Positions 29,294-61,668 of a stretch of 64,000 nt of DNA are shown here, piece after piece. The notes beneath the pieces were generated by a model. The model saw only the letters and a program-made list of their open reading frames with translations. It did not search any database and had not been told where the DNA came from. Position 1 is the first letter of the stretch. Every line of letters starts with the position of its first letter. The position numbers and the translations under genes were made by a program. Source of the DNA: Naegleria gruberi (lineage: Eukaryota); the NCBI GenBank assembly GCA_000004985.1, contig GG738904.1, one strand, 5' to 3'.

Positions 29294-29740
29294 NNNNNNN
29301 NNNNNNNNNNNNNNNNNNNNNNNNNNNNNNNNNNNNNNNNNNNNNNNNNNNNNNNNNNNNNNNNNNNNNNNNNNNNNNNNNNNNNNNNNNNNNNNNNNNN
29401 NNNNNNNNNNNNNNNNNNNNNNNNNNNNNNNNNNNNNNNNNNNNNNNNNNNNNNNNNNNNNNNNNNNNNNNNNNNNNNNNNNNNNNNNNNNNNNNNNNNN
29501 NNNNNNNNNNNNNNNNNNNNNNNNNNNNNNNNNNNNNNNNNNNNNNNNNNNNNNNNNNNNNNNNNNNNNNNNNNNNNNNNNNNNNNNNNNNNNNNNNNNN
29601 NNNNNNNNNNNNNNNNNNNNNNNNNNNNNNNNNNNNNNNNNNNNNNNNNNNNNNNNNNNNNNNNNNNNNNNNNNNNNNNNNNNNNNNNNNNNNNNNNNNN
29701 NNNNNNNNNNNNNNNNNNNNNNNNNNNNNNNNNNNNNNNN
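29294..29740. other. Assembly gap (447 N)
   Basis: Run of N. ORFs 29198-29755(-) and 29290-29931(+) in the track are read-through artefacts of the gap. Confidence 1.
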
Positions 29741-55249: not shown

Positions 55250-56233
55250 ATGAAATCAAACGTAAAGTCTCATCATGTCGGGCTCTGCTTGATGATTGTG
55301 ATCATCATGTTGTTGCAACAGGTTATTCTCATCACGGGACAAGTTAATAACCGTCCAATAATTGGAATTATGGCACAACCAACATATAAGAAAACATATG
55401 GAGAATCCTATTTGGCTGCATCATATGTGAAATGGATTGAATCGGGTGGTGCTCGTGTTGTTCCAATTCCCTACGATCTTCCACAGGAAAAATTAAATTT
55501 ATTATTTAATTCTTTGAATGGAATTGTTTTTCCAGGAGGTGGAACTTCTTTGAGATACTCTGAATATTACTATACATTGAAATTCTTTTTTGATAAAGCA
55601 ATCGAGGCAAATAATAGAGGTGATTATTTTCCAATTTGGGGAACTTGTTTGGGATTTGAAGCATTGAATGTATTGGCTGCTGATAATCCAGATGTTTTAC
55701 ATTTTGGATTTGATTCAGAGAATTTAAGTTTGAATTTACATTTTGTTAATGATTACAAGAATTCTAGAATTTTTGGAAAGGCACCACTTTCAGTTATGCA
55801 AATTTTGGCTGAACAAAACGTAACCATGAATAATCATATGGCAGGTATAACACCTGAAACTTTCATGAAGAATGACAGATTGAATCAATTTTACAAAATG
55901 TTATCTGTTAATGCTGATAGAAAAGGACAAGTGTTTGTATCAACCATTGAAAGTTTGAAATATCCAATTTATGGAACTCAATTCCATCCTGAAAAGATTC
56001 AATTTGAATTCAACTATGAAGACATTAATCACTCATACGATAGCGTATTAGCTAATCAATATTTTGCCAACTTTTTCGTAAATGAAGCCAGAAAGAATCA
56101 ACACAAATTTAGTTCATTTGAAGTGGAACAATCCTATAGCATTTACAATTTCAATGCCAAATTTACATTCCCAGAAATTAGCAAAGATTTTGTTCAAATT
56201 TATTACTTTAATGCTAGTAGAATTAATTTTTGA
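55250..56233 (+). CDS. GGH: Gamma-glutamyl hydrolase (class I glutamine amidotransferase-like, peptidase C26)
   Basis: Signal peptide MKSNVKSHHVGLCLMIVIIMLLQQVIL. Catalytic Cys in PIWGTCLGFE and His in YGTQFHPEK. 327 aa, single exon. Confidence 0.9.
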   Translation: MKSNVKSHHVGLCLMIVIIMLLQQVILITGQVNNRPIIGIMAQPTYKKTYGESYLAASYVKWIESGGARVVPIPYDLPQEKLNLLFNSLNGIVFPGGGTSLRYSEYYYTLKFFFDKAIEANNRGDYFPIWGTCLGFEALNVLAADNPDVLHFGFDSENLSLNLHFVNDYKNSRIFGKAPLSVMQILAEQNVTMNNHMAGITPETFMKNDRLNQFYKMLSVNADRKGQVFVSTIESLKYPIYGTQFHPEKIQFEFNYEDINHSYDSVLANQYFANFFVNEARKNQHKFSSFEVEQSYSIYNFNAKFTFPEISKDFVQIYYFNASRINF

Positions 56234-56251
56234 AAGAAATAATACAATTTA

Positions 56252-58276
56252 TTAATATCTTCTATTATTGCCAGAATAGCCATTTCTACCATTTCCATAA
56301 TTGTCATAATTTCTATTATTATTACCATGATAATTATCATTGTTTCTATGATTATTGCCACGATAATTATTATTGGATGATGAGGAATGATTATTTCTAT
56401 TAGAATTCTTGTTTGTGTGATATCCTTTCTGTTCACTCTTTTTCACACAATTTCTCAAGTATTGAGCAATGGTAGTGGCTGAGGAAAATTCATTATTAAA
56501 ACCAACATATTCGAAATATTCCTCAAAGGAGCTAACTTTTTGGATTTTGAAAACTTCTCTCTGAAGAACATCTTCAAGAGATTCGTCAGATTTAGTTTTT
56601 GGAGGAGCTCCAAAATTAATATCATACATTCTGCCTAATTCTGAGAGAGGCAAATCTCCATATGCTTCTACAACATTTCTCAAGAAGAAGACATGGAACA
56701 TGATTAATTTACAAGAAACCATATTTTCTTCCCATGATTTCTGACATCTTTCATAATTGTTTTGATCTGAATGAATATTGGAAAGTTTTGGATGTTTCTT
56801 AACCACCCATAATGCATTCCTAGTACCAGTTTCATCAACCACTGCTGATTTGATTGAATCCCATGTGAAACCAGAAGGACCTAAAATGGTCAACTTGGGA
56901 AGAAACTCACCAATATTTGGACATGCATTTTTAGTTCTAAACTTTTCATCATTGATAAAGTTTTGAACTTGCTTTTTGATATTATCAAGAGAATTTGGAA
57001 AGTTTTCCATCAAATAGATCAACCATCTATGGAAATATAAATATCCATACAGTGCCTTAATAGAGGCATGTGTGACACCTTTCATAATTTCAACAACCAT
57101 ATTGTTCATCAATTTACAAAGTAATTCGACATATGGTTCGGCACTATCGAGGTCAATTTGTCCATTTCTGTTTGGAGTGAGAAGTTTAGGATAATATTCC
57201 AAAAGAAAGGAAAGTGAATTTTTGAAAACTGAGAATTTTGCATGAGTTTGATTAATGAACAATGGAATCCAACCATGAATTGGTTGACCCCAAACACTCT
57301 TGTACACCTCCTCATGGAAGAATGATGATTCACTTATGAAATCAAGTGGAGTTTTGATTTCCTTGATAGTTTCGTCATTTTTCAACTCAATCCAAAGTCC
57401 AATTCCAAGTGTTTCTTCCTTGTATGAAGATTTAGAATGGAAACAAATCAATTCTCGTGAGTAGGTAAGATATTTACAATCACAAGCATGTTGGAAAGCT
57501 TTGCAAACTGTTTCTACTCGTTTCAAATCAATAAACGAAAGATAGGAAAAGATGTGGATAAGTATTTCATTTGGAAAATCTTCAAAAGAAATCATTGTTT
57601 TGGTTAAAGAGTTTGTGGAATTTCTAATGCCAACAATTGAACTTTCGTCAAGTTTCTCAATAAGAATCTTCTTGAGAGCTTGTTCGGATTCGTCCTGACT
57701 TTCGAATTTTCTCTTCTTTAAACCAGAATTGAACACCTCCTCAACATTCCAATGAGGAGCCATCGGATAAATCTTTCCTTCTTGTGGCCAATGTCCAGTC
57801 TCTTGGACACGAGTAGCTCTAGAACCTTTAATATCTTTCTCAATGTGAGATTGATGAAGATGCTCCTCTTCCAATAAGAAAGCTTGCAATTGCAATAGAA
57901 TGGACAAACATGAATAACTTGAACTCCATCCCATATATGGTTCTTCAGAGTGATGTGTCTCCAACATGTCCAAACAAATAAATTGTCTATAGACATGGGA
58001 ATGATACAATGGAGTGAGACATTTTACAGTTGGAGGTGAATGAGGATAATCATTTGGAAAGGTAATTTCCAAACTAATGATAATGCCATAATATTTGGAT
58101 GATTGTGGAGCTAATAAAGTTGCATACCAGTGAAATAAATTATTTTCAAAGGGTTCGGCGTAGACTGTATCGAGTGGATTATTCTGAATTTCAATGAAAT
58201 CTTTGGATAAACGTTTTAAAGCTCTGCTGTGTGGAGTTGCTGCTGTTGAATTTGATGAATTTGATGAATTTGACAT
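56252..58276 (-). CDS. Ubiquitin-conjugating (UBC/E2) domain protein with internal F-box and large C-terminal region ending in an N/R/G/Y-rich tail
   Basis: ATG at 58276, 28 nt before the gap. UBC fold SRALKRLSKDFIEIQNNPL...LFHWYATLLAPQSSKYYGIIISLEITFPNDYPHSPPTVKCLTPLYHSHVYRQFICLDML...W (active-site Cys in FICLDML, HPN replaced by HSH). F-box FPNEILIHIFSYLSFIDLKRVETVCKAF about 255 aa in. Single exon of 674 aa. The track ORF extension to 58363 is read-through of N. Confidence 0.75.
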   Translation of the reverse strand: MSNSSNSSNSTAATPHSRALKRLSKDFIEIQNNPLDTVYAEPFENNLFHWYATLLAPQSSKYYGIIISLEITFPNDYPHSPPTVKCLTPLYHSHVYRQFICLDMLETHHSEEPYMGWSSSYSCLSILLQLQAFLLEEEHLHQSHIEKDIKGSRATRVQETGHWPQEGKIYPMAPHWNVEEVFNSGLKKRKFESQDESEQALKKILIEKLDESSIVGIRNSTNSLTKTMISFEDFPNEILIHIFSYLSFIDLKRVETVCKAFQHACDCKYLTYSRELICFHSKSSYKEETLGIGLWIELKNDETIKEIKTPLDFISESSFFHEEVYKSVWGQPIHGWIPLFINQTHAKFSVFKNSLSFLLEYYPKLLTPNRNGQIDLDSAEPYVELLCKLMNNMVVEIMKGVTHASIKALYGYLYFHRWLIYLMENFPNSLDNIKKQVQNFINDEKFRTKNACPNIGEFLPKLTILGPSGFTWDSIKSAVVDETGTRNALWVVKKHPKLSNIHSDQNNYERCQKSWEENMVSCKLIMFHVFFLRNVVEAYGDLPLSELGRMYDINFGAPPKTKSDESLEDVLQREVFKIQKVSSFEEYFEYVGFNNEFSSATTIAQYLRNCVKKSEQKGYHTNKNSNRNNHSSSSNNNYRGNNHRNNDNYHGNNNRNYDNYGNGRNGYSGNNRRY

Positions 58277-58304: not shown

Positions 58305-58354
58305 NNNNNNNNNNNNNNNNNNNNNNNNNNNNNNNNNNNNNNNNNNNNNNNNNN
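58305..58354. other. Assembly gap (50 N, size placeholder)
   Basis: Run of N. Confidence 1.
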
Positions 58355-58992
58355 CTTGACCAAAATGGTTGTTCCTCATCTGATTGAATCCATTCAAATA
58401 ATTTTTCATAGAATATTTTAGGATGTTGTAAAATTCTTTCTTTTTTAACATGAAAAGAGGCGCAACACCATCTAGTAATGCTTGATGGTACTTTACCCAA
58501 TTCATTTTCGAATAGTTTCTTCCAATATTTTTCAACTATACGATAATTAGGATCTGTTTCATTCAAATGTCTGTGAAATTGTGGATTTAATGAAATGTAT
58601 TCATATTTACCCCAATATAAACTCTCCACAACAGGTACAATATCAACATAATGCCACGATTTCCTATGTCCATGAATAAAAATCATATTTTCAGGTAAAT
58701 TTTCATAATAATCAATAATAAATTTCAAATAACTTGAAGCTTCATGTCCCCTATTTTCTTTTACTTTAAATGATGGATTTGGATCCAATCTATCATAAAC
58801 TACGTGTGGAATATGAGGGAAATGTGTTGCTAACCACGATGTGTCCTCATTAAATCTTGAAACTATTATCATGTTTTTAGTATTGGTAAAATTATCATGT
58901 TTTGGAGTATTGTGGTGTATAACTCCGAATTGATATAAAACAATAGTCATGAGTGTGAGGAAAACTAAACTCCACAAAATACGTTCTTTCAT
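58355..58992 (-). CDS. DUF3431-like type II membrane protein (putative glycosyltransferase-like), 3' end lost in gap
   Basis: ATG at 58992. N-terminal signal anchor ILWSLVFLTLMTIVLYQF, motif VSRFNEDTSWL, HGHRKSWHYVD. ORF runs into the gap at 58354. Confidence 0.55.
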
Positions 58993-59191
58993 TTTTTTTT
59001 ACAACACTTGACAGGGGAATTTAACAGTTTCGCTAGGTAATGTTTTGGTAAATCCAAAGTTGGTGTAATATTTTCAAAATCAAAAACCACAAGAACCAGT
59101 TCGATGTAGTATGTTGCCTCTTCATCATCACCTCTTTCAGGTACCTCAATTACATTTTATCTGATTAAGGTCTTGATATAAAAAATGTGCT

Positions 59192-59262
59192 CGTCTCGTG
59201 GTGTAATGGTAGCATAGTGGACTTTGAATCCATTGACGGAGGTTCGATTCCTCCCGAGACGG
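59192..59262 (+). tRNA. tRNA-Gln(UUG): tRNA-Gln (anticodon UUG), copy 1
   Basis: CGTCTCG TG GTGT AATGGTAG CATA GTGGA CTTTGAA TCCAT TGAC GGAGG TTCGATT CCTCC CGAGACG G. Cloverleaf with 7-bp acceptor (C1-G72), D-arm like eukaryotic tRNA-Gln, anticodon loop CTTTGAA, T-loop TTCGATT. No encoded CCA. Confidence 0.8.
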
Positions 59263-59294
59263 TAAACGTGGCGAGCCATTGAGATTTGCAAACT

Positions 59295-59344
59295 NNNNNN
59301 NNNNNNNNNNNNNNNNNNNNNNNNNNNNNNNNNNNNNNNNNNNN
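59295..59344. other. Assembly gap (50 N)
   Basis: Run of N. Confidence 1.
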
Positions 59345-59460
59345 TCTGAATTTCAATGAAATCTTTGGATAAACGTTTTAAAGCTCTGCTGTGTGGAGTT
59401 GCTGCTGTTGAATAGGAAGAATTTGACATTTTAATTGAAAGACAATTTGATGAAATTTAA
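59345..59460 (-). repeat. Near-identical second copy of the 5' end (first ~28 codons plus 5' UTR) of the E2/F-box gene, abutting a gap
   Basis: 59345-59460 matches 58186-58304 except for a short microsatellite-like indel (MSNSSYSTAATPHSRALKRLSKDFIEIQ vs MSNSSNSSNSTAATPH...). Flush against the N run, so consistent with an uncollapsed haplotype or contig-end overlap rather than a real exon. Confidence 0.6.
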
Positions 59461-60656: not shown

Positions 60657-60727
60657 CTCGAGTGCCGGGAATTGAACCCGGGTCGCCAGAGTGACAGTCT
60701 GGAATGCTACCACTATACCACACCCGA
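60657..60727 (-). tRNA. tRNA-Asp(GUC): tRNA-Asp (anticodon GUC)
   Basis: Reverse complement: TCGGGTG TG GTATAGTGGTAG CAT T CCAGA CTGTCAC TCTGG CGAC CCGGG TTCAATT CCCGG CACTCGA G. U1-A72 start and GTATAGTGGT D-arm typical of eukaryotic tRNA-Asp. G4-U69 wobble. Confidence 0.85.
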
Positions 60728-61150: not shown

Positions 61151-61407
61151 AAGGTATTTTTGTATTGGTCACTCTAGTTGTTGTAATGCCAGGTTTTGAG
61201 GCTTAGAATTTAACGAAAATGGTTTGCCTTCTTGATGTGTTTTGAAGCTATGGGAGTAAACTACAATTTCCTTTTTGCTTAAAATTTAATCTCAAAACGC
61301 GGCATATTTTCAATTAATTATCAAAAACCAAAAGAACCAGTTCAGTCTACATAAATTGTTGCTTCAATTAAATATTATGATTAAGGTGTTGATTTAGTGA
61401 ATGTGCT

Positions 61408-61478
61408 CGTCTCGTGGTGTAATGGTAGCATAGTGGACTTTGAATCCATTGACGGAGGTTCGATTCCTCCCGAGACGG
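61408..61478 (+). tRNA. tRNA-Gln(UUG): tRNA-Gln (anticodon UUG), copy 2 (identical to copy 1)
   Basis: Same 71-nt sequence as 59192-59262. The about 10 nt upstream (AATGTG) and about 24 nt downstream (TAAACGTGGCGAGCC.TTGAGATTT) are also conserved between the copies. Confidence 0.8.
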
Positions 61479-61668
61479 TAAACGTGGCGAGCCCTTGAGA
61501 TTTTTCTTATTGAACTTTTTCTGTTTAACAACATGCAATACGCCTCAACAGAGATAGAACTCACTACTCAGTTCACCTATTGGTTACTGCTGCTATTAAG
61601 CAATTGAAGGAATAAGTTAATAATAATTGCTTGTGTTTGCGTTTACGTTTTACAATTTCCAGAAAAAA

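What the first reader, a model, noticed from the sequence alone, without database searches (positions are those of the whole stretch)
56252..58276. E2 ubiquitin-conjugating domain and F-box in one polypeptide
A single 674-aa ORF starts with a complete UBC fold (active-site Cys in FICLDML, conserved Trp, N-terminal helix SRALKRLSKDFIEIQ). About 100 residues later it carries a good F-box (FPNEILIHIFSYLSFIDLKRVETVCKAF), followed by a 400-aa region of unknown fold and an N/G/R/Y-rich tail. F-box proteins normally recruit substrates to SCF E3 complexes, which in turn recruit a separate E2. An E2 that itself carries a Skp1-binding F-box is an unusual arrangement: a self-contained E2-adaptor, or an E2 that is itself an SCF substrate. 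HPN is replaced by HSH, so the catalytic competence of the E2 is uncertain.
Basis: partly seen in the sequence, partly recalled or inferred. Interest (0 to 1): 0.6.

Follow-up and report, generated by a model that had tools for sequence, protein, structure and literature searches.

The report
E2, F-box and UBR4-like E3 fused
This Naegleria gruberi gene encodes one protein that joins a ubiquitin-conjugating enzyme (E2), an F-box, and a domain predicted to fold like the catalytic ligase module of the giant E3 UBR4, so the "unknown" C-terminal half is probably the E2's own built-in ligase partner; it belongs to a large protist family that I did not find described in the papers I could search.

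Summary
Window 56252-58276 (-) is one uninterrupted 674-aa ORF, identical to N. gruberi NAEGRDRAFT_59412. It matches Pfam UQ_con (80.7 bits) and F-box-like (40.9 bits). It has Cys101 in ICLDML and HSH in place of HPN.

The E2 domain scores best against RAD6/UBE2A/B, the cognate E2 of UBR-type ligases, though by a modest margin.

The C-terminal domain occurs in at least 1285 representative proteins. In all 88 full-length members examined, a UBC domain lies upstream of it. The F-box is an accessory, present in 28 of 85 by Pfam. Other members carry LRR, SPRY, S1, RRM or CCCH domains instead.

The catalytic Cys is kept in 84 of 88. The HPN asparagine is N in 41 and H in 41, and the active E2 UBE2W also has HPH.

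Best reading: a single-chain E2-E3 cassette that docks on Skp1. E3 activity, zinc binding and Skp1 binding are untested. Named members are Heterolobosea and Amoebozoa.

The parts
56252..58276 (-). Complete CDS (674 aa plus stop), single exon, = NAEGRDRAFT_59412
57815..58234 (-). UBC (E2) core, residues 15-154. Closest to RAD6/UBE2A/B by family-profile score.
57995..58003 (-). HSH (residues 92-94) in place of the HPN motif
   Evidence: Across the family the third position is N in 41 and H in 41.
57974..57976 (-). Codon of the catalytic Cys101 (ICLDML)
   Evidence: Cys is present in 84 of 88 family UBC domains.
57719..57814 (-). Conserved post-UBC segment (residues 155-186) with invariant His162 and Pro171. 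In 63 of 88 relatives it carries C-x(1,2)-C-x-H...WP; both Cys are lost in the Naegleria/Willaertia clade.
   Evidence: pLDDT 87-91 in the full-length model.
57596..57718 (-). Disordered acidic/basic linker (residues 187-227)
   Evidence: pLDDT below 50. Not alignable among relatives.
57467..57583 (-). F-box (residues 232-270, FPNEILIHIFSYLSFIDLKRVETVCKAF)
57194..57463 (-). N-terminal beta-rich subdomain of the C-terminal module (residues 272-361), proposed counterpart of the UBR4 hemiRING. Cys278 is 99% conserved, His280 74%, Pro338 99%, His345 97%.
   Evidence: Residue-level equivalence to the UBR4 zinc ligands was not established.
56426..57139 (-). Helical subdomain (residues 380-617), proposed counterpart of the UBR4 UZI bundle
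56255..56413 (-). N/G/R/Y-rich disordered tail (residues 622-674) ending in RRY
   Evidence: R/G/Y-rich tails also occur in relatives P0011, P0015 and P0016.

Best explanation
The gene encodes a single-chain E2-E3 ubiquitin ligase that also carries an F-box.

Its layout is as follows. An N-terminal E2 of the RAD6/UBE2D-like core type has an intact catalytic Cys101. A disordered linker and an F-box follow. The C-terminal module folds like the hemiRING-UZI E3 module of UBR4. In UBR4 that module binds UBE2A/B and modestly activates the ubiquitin-loaded E2.

I infer the following mechanism. E1 charges the E2 with ubiquitin. The fused UBR4-like module engages that E2, in cis or between two molecules, and promotes discharge onto a substrate lysine. 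The F-box tethers the cassette to Skp1. That either places a second E2-E3 centre in an SCF complex, or uses Skp1 and its partners as the source of substrates or of regulation. In paralogous family members LRR, SPRY, ankyrin, S1, RRM or CCCH domains take the F-box's place as the specificity element.

Shown here: the domain content, the predicted fold match, and the conservation of the fusion and of the Cys. Inferred: E3 activity, cis activation and Skp1 binding.
For: - Domains: UQ_con, F-box-like and F-box all score above the Pfam cut-offs.
- C-terminal module: modelled at pLDDT 89.8 and pTM 0.89 without templates.
- Independent method: Foldseek returns 8btl_A as the only hit with E at or below 0.001 (E 2.9e-5, probability 1.0, TM 0.57).
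- What that fold does: the UBR4 paper shows the module binds UBE2A/B and has E3 activity (PMC10873205).
- E2 type: the family UBC profile ranks RAD6 orthologues from human, plant, worm and yeast first at 117-111 bits, including the E2 chains of the UBR1 and UBR4 complexes. UBE2D scores at most 107. RAD6 is the best panel hit for 55 of 88 members.
- Obligate linkage: the C-domain is found in 1285 representatives, and in 88 of 88 full-length ones a UBC lies upstream. UQ_con matches 85 of 85.
- Cassette behaviour: accessory domains typical of E3 specificity modules vary around a constant core.
- Catalytic residues: Cys is kept in 84 of 88; N and H alternate at the HPN third position; UBE2W has HPH.
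- Full-length model: pTM 0.73 although 115 residues are disordered. This is compatible with a defined domain arrangement, but I could not inspect coordinates.
Against: - No sequence-level link to UBR4. The C-domain profile finds nothing real among PDB sequences, and no Pfam family matches.
- The structural match is 12% identical and rests on a predicted model.
- The UBR4 C2HC zinc ligand set is not evidently conserved. Only Cys278 (99%) and His345 (97%) are near-invariant in the corresponding subdomain. The RING-like E2-binding surface may therefore be degenerate.
- The preference for RAD6 over UBE2D is only about 4-10 bits, and 31 of 88 members score higher with UBE2D2.
- The HPN asparagine is absent in this protein.
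- Skp1 binding, thioester formation and ligase activity were not and could not be tested here.
- The presence of Skp1 and Cul1 in N. gruberi was not checked.
Confidence: 0.55

Rival explanations
1. It is a conventional F-box substrate receptor. The C-terminal domain only binds substrates for SCF(Cul1-Rbx1). The N-terminal UBC is a regulatory or pseudo-E2 (UEV-like) element, for example a ubiquitin- or E3-binding domain without conjugating activity.
For: The F-box followed by a C-terminal domain is the canonical layout of a receptor. The HPN asparagine, important for catalysis in most E2s, is replaced by His. The UBR4 zinc ligands are not evidently kept.
Against: The catalytic Cys is kept in 84 of 88 family members, which is unexpected for a pseudo-enzyme. 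About two thirds of the family have no detectable F-box yet keep UBC plus C-domain, so the C-domain's conserved partner is the E2, not Skp1. The C-domain matches a known E2-binding E3 module rather than any known substrate-binding fold. UBE2W shows that HPH occurs in an active E2 (plus my own knowledge).
Confidence: 0.15
2. It is an E2 whose abundance or location is controlled by SCF. The F-box makes the E2-E3 fusion a Skp1-bound target of Cul1-Rbx1 autoubiquitylation (as many F-box proteins turn over), or Skp1 merely stabilises it outside any SCF complex.
For: The F-box is genuine by profile and fold. F-box proteins are commonly autoubiquitylated within SCF, and some act with Skp1 outside SCF (established knowledge). 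A long disordered Lys-rich linker (residues 187-227) lies next to the F-box.
Against: Nothing here distinguishes regulation from function. This reading does not explain why an E3-like module is always fused to the E2. It is compatible with the best explanation rather than exclusive of it.
Confidence: 0.2
3. The C-terminal Cys278 (CFHSK, 99% conserved) is a second catalytic cysteine. The module would then work as a thioester-forming E3, with E2-to-E3 transthiolation as in HECT, RBR or RCR ligases, rather than as a RING-like scaffold.
For: Cys278 and the adjacent His280 and Lys282 remain conserved even in the Naegleria clade, which has lost the post-UBC CxxC. So Cys278 is not kept only as a partner of that motif.
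Against: This is pure inference from conservation. Cys278 lies about where the first UBR4 zinc ligand (Cys4838) sits in the chain, so a structural or metal-binding role is simpler. UBR4 itself is not a thioester E3 according to PMC10873205.
Confidence: 0.07
4. It is an artefact: two genes joined by a sequencing or assembly error, or by a missed intron or stop.
For: Assembly gaps and a duplicated 5' end lie immediately upstream.
Against: There is no N, stop or frame change within 56252-58276. The same fusion occurs in independent genomes and in de novo transcript assemblies (Pyxidicula, Pellita, Protostelium).
Confidence: 0.02

Closest known systems
UBR4 hemiRING-UZI E3 module with its E2 UBE2A/UBE2B (PDB 8BTL; Barnsby-Greer et al. 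2024, PMC10873205)
   Different: - E2 and E3 module are covalently fused instead of being separate proteins.
- No UBR box and no giant scaffold.
- 12% identity and no sequence-profile link.
- The C2HC zinc ligands of the hemiRING are not evidently conserved.
- An F-box sits directly N-terminal to the module, where UBR4 has an E2-affinity region.
E2-E3 hybrid enzymes UBE2O and BIRC6
   Same: One polypeptide combines a UBC domain with the elements that select or activate ubiquitin transfer, so no separate E3 is needed.
F-box proteins of SCF ligases (e.g. Skp2, FBXO3, FBXL2); FBXO11/UBR6 as an F-box protein within the UBR family
   Same: A canonical F-box by profile and fold, followed by a C-terminal domain.
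   Different: Known F-box proteins do not carry their own E2. SCF recruits its E2 through Rbx1. FBXO11 shares the UBR box, not the hemiRING-UZI module.
UBE2W
   Same: HPH replaces HPN in an active E2 (2mt6).
   Different: It is not a close relative: mean score 26.8 bits against 58.5 for RAD6. The His substitution therefore looks convergent.

Membership tests
UBC / E2 (Pfam PF00179) | UBC fold and profile match | tested here: met
UBC / E2 (Pfam PF00179) | Catalytic cysteine | tested here: met
   Cys101 aligns with the active-site Cys of UBE2D and RAD6. It is kept in 84 of 88 family members.
UBC / E2 (Pfam PF00179) | HPN motif | tested here: not met
   HSH at residues 92-94. Across the family the third position is N in 41 and H in 41. 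UBE2W has HPH.
UBC / E2 (Pfam PF00179) | E1-dependent ubiquitin thioester formation | not testable with these tools
   Needs biochemistry.
RAD6/UBE2A/B subfamily | Closest relationship to RAD6 orthologues rather than to other E2 families | tested here: inconclusive
   The family profile ranks RAD6 orthologues first at 117-111 bits, with UBE2D at most 107. RAD6 is the best hit for 55 of 88 members and UBE2D2 for 31 of 88. No phylogeny was made.
F-box (PF00646 / PF12937) | Profile match above the curated cut-off | tested here: met
   40.9 bits against 24.3, and 30.3 bits against 20.5.
F-box (PF00646 / PF12937) | Three-helix F-box fold | tested here: met
F-box (PF00646 / PF12937) | Binding to Skp1 | not testable with these tools
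   No complex prediction or experiment was available. The presence of Skp1 in N. gruberi was not checked.
UBR4-type hemiRING-UZI E3 module | Overall two-subdomain fold | tested here: met
UBR4-type hemiRING-UZI E3 module | C2HC zinc site of the hemiRING (Cys4838, Cys4841, His4887, Cys4890) | tested here: inconclusive
   Only Cys278 (99%) and His345 (97%) are near-invariant; His280 is at 74% and His at position 335 at 53%. No residue-level superposition was possible.
UBR4-type hemiRING-UZI E3 module | Detectable sequence homology to UBR4 | tested here: not met
   The family profile against PDB sequences finds only spurious kinase hits. No Pfam family matches. A profile-profile test against UBR4 orthologues was not possible.
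UBR4-type hemiRING-UZI E3 module | E2 binding and E3 activity | not testable with these tools
   Needs biochemistry or complex modelling.
UEV / pseudo-E2 | Loss of the catalytic cysteine | tested here: not met
   The Cys is present here and in 84 of 88 relatives.

The most novel reading that the evidence does not exclude
These proteins may form a previously unrecognised class of single-chain ubiquitin ligases. In them a cognate E2-E3 pair (a RAD6-like E2 and a UBR-type RING/UZI module) has been welded together into a portable catalytic cassette, which different lineages target with different add-on domains. In the Naegleria branch the add-on is an F-box. Skp1 (and possibly Cul1-Rbx1) would then carry a receptor that brings its own charged E2, giving an SCF with two catalytic centres, for example priming plus chain extension, or a Skp1-dependent ligase that needs no cullin.
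Probability: 0.3. Interest if true: 0.75.

Novelty: new variant of a known kind. Interest (0 to 1): 0.62.

Why it matters
- It acts as a natural "Rosetta-stone" fusion. It independently supports the functional pairing of a RAD6-type E2 with the UBR-type RING/UZI module, which was defined structurally only in 2024.
- It suggests the hemiRING-UZI fold is a mobile catalytic module that exists outside the giant UBR proteins.
- It offers a compact (~70 kDa), probably soluble model for studying how the UZI bundle activates an E2.
- It raises a testable question about SCF architecture: what happens when the substrate receptor carries its own E2?
- The recurrent association of the family with RNA-binding domains (S1, RRM, CCCH, CLU) and with R/G/Y-rich tails hints at ubiquitylation on ribonucleoprotein targets in amoeboid protists.

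Tried and rejected
- AlphaFold-database fold search (afdb50): unavailable, so I could not list annotated structural relatives or widen the taxonomy that way.
- Sequence routes to name the C-domain failed. Pfam on 26 diverse members gave nothing. The family HMM against PDB sequences gave only spurious GAK kinase hits. A word-indexed search with the alignment returned only 10 proteins.
- I could not obtain UBR4 C-terminal sequences for a profile-profile test. The paper's supplements hold only primers.
- Kinship with UBE2W, suggested by the shared HxH, is rejected. UBE2W scores lowest of six E2s.
- The pseudo-E2 reading is rejected on Cys conservation.
- The misassembly or frameshift reading is rejected.
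- Post-UBC C-x-x-C-x-H motif as the missing half of the hemiRING zinc site: the full-length model aligns no more residues to 8btl_A than the C-domain alone (291 against 292). It is therefore probably a family-specific element. This remains unresolved.
- Literature searches for an E2-F-box or E2-UZI fusion found nothing relevant. Burroughs et al. 2008 on E2 architectures is not held.

Full report
**What is there**

The window is Naegleria gruberi DNA. The ORF on the minus strand from 58276 (ATG) to 56252 (stop) encodes 674 aa. It contains no N and no internal stop. It is 100% identical over its full length to the NCBI model NAEGRDRAFT_59412.

Pfam gives UQ_con at residues 22-138 (80.7 bits, E 1e-22). 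It gives F-box-like at 232-270 (40.9 bits) and F-box (30.3 bits). All three exceed the curated cut-offs.

PDB sequence hits align Cys101 (FICLDML) with the active-site Cys of UBE2D and RAD6. They also show YHSHV where those enzymes have YHPN(I/V).

Neighbouring genes are unrelated: a Peptidase_C26 gene at 55250-56233 (+) and a DUF3431 gene at 58355-58992 (-).

**Is the fusion real?**

The best relatives have the same order: UBC, linker, F-box, C-terminal domain. They come from a second N. gruberi paralogue, N. lovaniensis (two), N. fowleri (two), Willaertia magna and Acrasis kona.

More distant members come from Arcella, Pyxidicula, Pelomyxa, Pellita and Protostelium. Several of these are de novo transcript assemblies, so the fusion is present in assembled transcripts.

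A frameshift or misassembly can be dismissed. The only assembly problem is upstream. A 50-N gap lies 28 nt before the ATG. A near-identical copy of the 5' end sits at 59345-59429, differing by a 9-nt indel and three substitutions, and is cut by a second 50-N gap. This is probably an allelic contig end scaffolded in. It does not touch the domain junctions.

**The C-terminal domain**

An exhaustive profile-free search with residues 272-640 found 1285 representative proteins at E up to 1e-3, and 740 at E up to 1e-10. No Pfam family covers the domain.

I modelled the full protein from a 17-sequence alignment (mean pLDDT 79, pTM 0.73). I modelled the C-domain alone from 23 sequences (pLDDT 89.8, pTM 0.89). 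Both runs used no templates.

8BTL is the complex of UBE2A with the E3 module of human UBR4. That module consists of a 'hemiRING' zinc finger and an 11-helix 'UZI' bundle. It binds UBE2A/B and modestly activates the ubiquitin-loaded E2. Its authors found no related fold outside UBR1-3 (PMC10873205).

8BTL was released in December 2023. To my knowledge that is after the AlphaFold2 training cut-off, so the model was not copied from it.

**The E2**

A profile of 30 family UBC domains ranks RAD6 orthologues first. These are human UBE2B and UBE2A, Arabidopsis 2aak, C. elegans UBC-1 and yeast Rad6, at 117-111 bits. They include the very E2 chains solved with UBR1 (7mey_B) and UBR4 (8btl_C). UBE2D follows at 107 bits or less.

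The lean toward RAD6 is consistent but small. I treat it as supportive, not proven.

Cys101 is conserved in 84 of 88 family UBC domains. The third HPN position is Asn in 41 and His in 41. The solved E2 UBE2W has HPHVYSNGHICLSIL and is an active enzyme (my own knowledge). It is not close kin here, scoring a mean of 26.8 bits. The His substitution is therefore a recurrent variant, not evidence of a dead enzyme.

**What is core and what is accessory**

Among the 160 sequences retrieved, 88 carry a full UBC. In all 88 the UBC lies upstream of the C-domain. Pfam finds UQ_con in 85 of 85 non-redundant full-length members.

The F-box is detected in 28 of 85 by Pfam and in 39 of 88 by a family HMM. 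It always lies 2-63 residues before the C-domain.

Other members carry different domains, between or around the two core domains:
- S1 (12 members)
- LRR (10)
- RRM (8)
- TerD (5)
- CCCH fingers (3)
- VWA, CLU and SPRY (2 each)
- ankyrin, C2 and a 2'-5' RNA ligase domain (1 each)

.

A constant E2 plus E3-like core with interchangeable interaction domains is the pattern expected of a catalytic cassette with variable targeting modules. The Heterolobosea branch, including this gene, uses an F-box.

**Mechanism**

Shown: the domain content, the predicted fold match, the obligate linkage of E2 and C-domain, and retention of the catalytic Cys.

Inferred: the C-domain engages the fused E2 as the UBR4 hemiRING-UZI engages UBE2A, and promotes ubiquitin discharge. 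The F-box binds Skp1.

Two ways Skp1 docking could be used cannot be separated here.
- The cassette could be incorporated into Cul1-Rbx1, giving two catalytic centres.
- The protein could form a cullin-independent Skp1 complex, or be regulated by SCF autoubiquitylation.

**Weak points**

- There is no sequence-level link to UBR4.
- The UBR4 C2HC zinc ligands (Cys4838, Cys4841, His4887, Cys4890) have no obvious counterparts. In 133 aligned C-domains only Cys278 (99%) and His345 (97%) are near-invariant in the beta-rich subdomain. His280 is at 74% and His at position 335 at 53%.
- I had no access to model coordinates. I could therefore check neither ligand geometry nor whether the UBC packs on the hemiRING-like face.

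**A further family feature**

A conserved post-UBC segment carries C-x(1,2)-C-x-H...WP in 63 of 88 members. The Naegleria/Willaertia clade has lost both Cys but keeps His162 and Pro171. The segment adds nothing to the alignment with 8btl_A: 291 residues align for the full-length model against 292 for the C-domain alone. Its role is unknown.

**Comparison and novelty**

In function the protein most resembles the E2-E3 hybrids UBE2O and BIRC6, but it shares only the UBC fold with them. In structure its ligase half resembles UBR4. Its F-box is canonical.

I found no paper describing an E2-F-box or E2-UZI fusion in the searchable library. Public databases name these proteins only as hypothetical or 'ubiquitin-conjugating enzyme family' proteins.

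I rate it a new variant of a known kind: a single-chain E2-E3 ligase. Interest is moderate to high because it extends a fold defined in 2024 beyond the UBR giants, and because it puts an E2 on an SCF receptor.

Noticed in passing
window 58305-58354, 59295-59344 and 59345-59429 (-): Two 50-N scaffold gaps bracket a 940-nt piece holding a truncated DUF3431 gene and a tRNA-Gln. Just beyond the second gap lies a near-identical copy of the E2 gene's 5' end (ATG to ...IEIQ), differing by a 9-nt indel and three substitutions. It is probably an allelic contig end or a scaffolding artefact rather than a real partial duplication.
   Followed up: partly
window 57719-57814 (-), residues 155-186; relatives P0013-P0155: Directly after the UBC domain, 63 of 88 family members carry a C-x(1,2)-C-x-H...(W/F/Y)P motif resembling a zinc knuckle. 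The Naegleria/Willaertia clade has lost both cysteines but keeps His162 and Pro171. Its partner ligands and its role are unknown.
   Followed up: partly
window 57443-57445 (-), Cys278 in CFHSK: A cysteine is conserved in 99% of 133 C-domains, followed by His (74%) and an invariant Lys. It stays conserved even where the post-UBC CxxC is lost. It could be a metal ligand equivalent to UBR4 Cys4838 or, speculatively, a second catalytic cysteine.
   Followed up: partly
window 56255-56413 (-), residues 622-674; relatives P0011, P0015, P0016: The R/G/Y/N-rich disordered tail ends in RRY, and similar ends occur in P0002, P0007 and P0017. Other family members have RGG-rich tails or S1, RRM, CCCH and CLU domains. 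This is a recurrent link to RNA-binding elements that may point to ribonucleoprotein targets.
   Followed up: no
window 59191-59263 (+), 61407-61479 (+), 60657-60727 (-): Two tRNA-Gln(TTG) genes and one tRNA-Asp(GTC) gene lie within about 2.3 kb upstream of the E2 gene region.
   Followed up: no
window 29294-29740: A 447-N assembly gap elsewhere in the window coincides with the lowest-GC 2-kb bin (0.257).
   Followed up: no
P0008 (NAEGRDRAFT_76881, 233 aa, on a 3.7-kb contig): A third N. gruberi copy consists only of the distal part of the C-domain and is 64% identical to this gene. It is probably a fragment on a short contig or a pseudogene.
   Followed up: no
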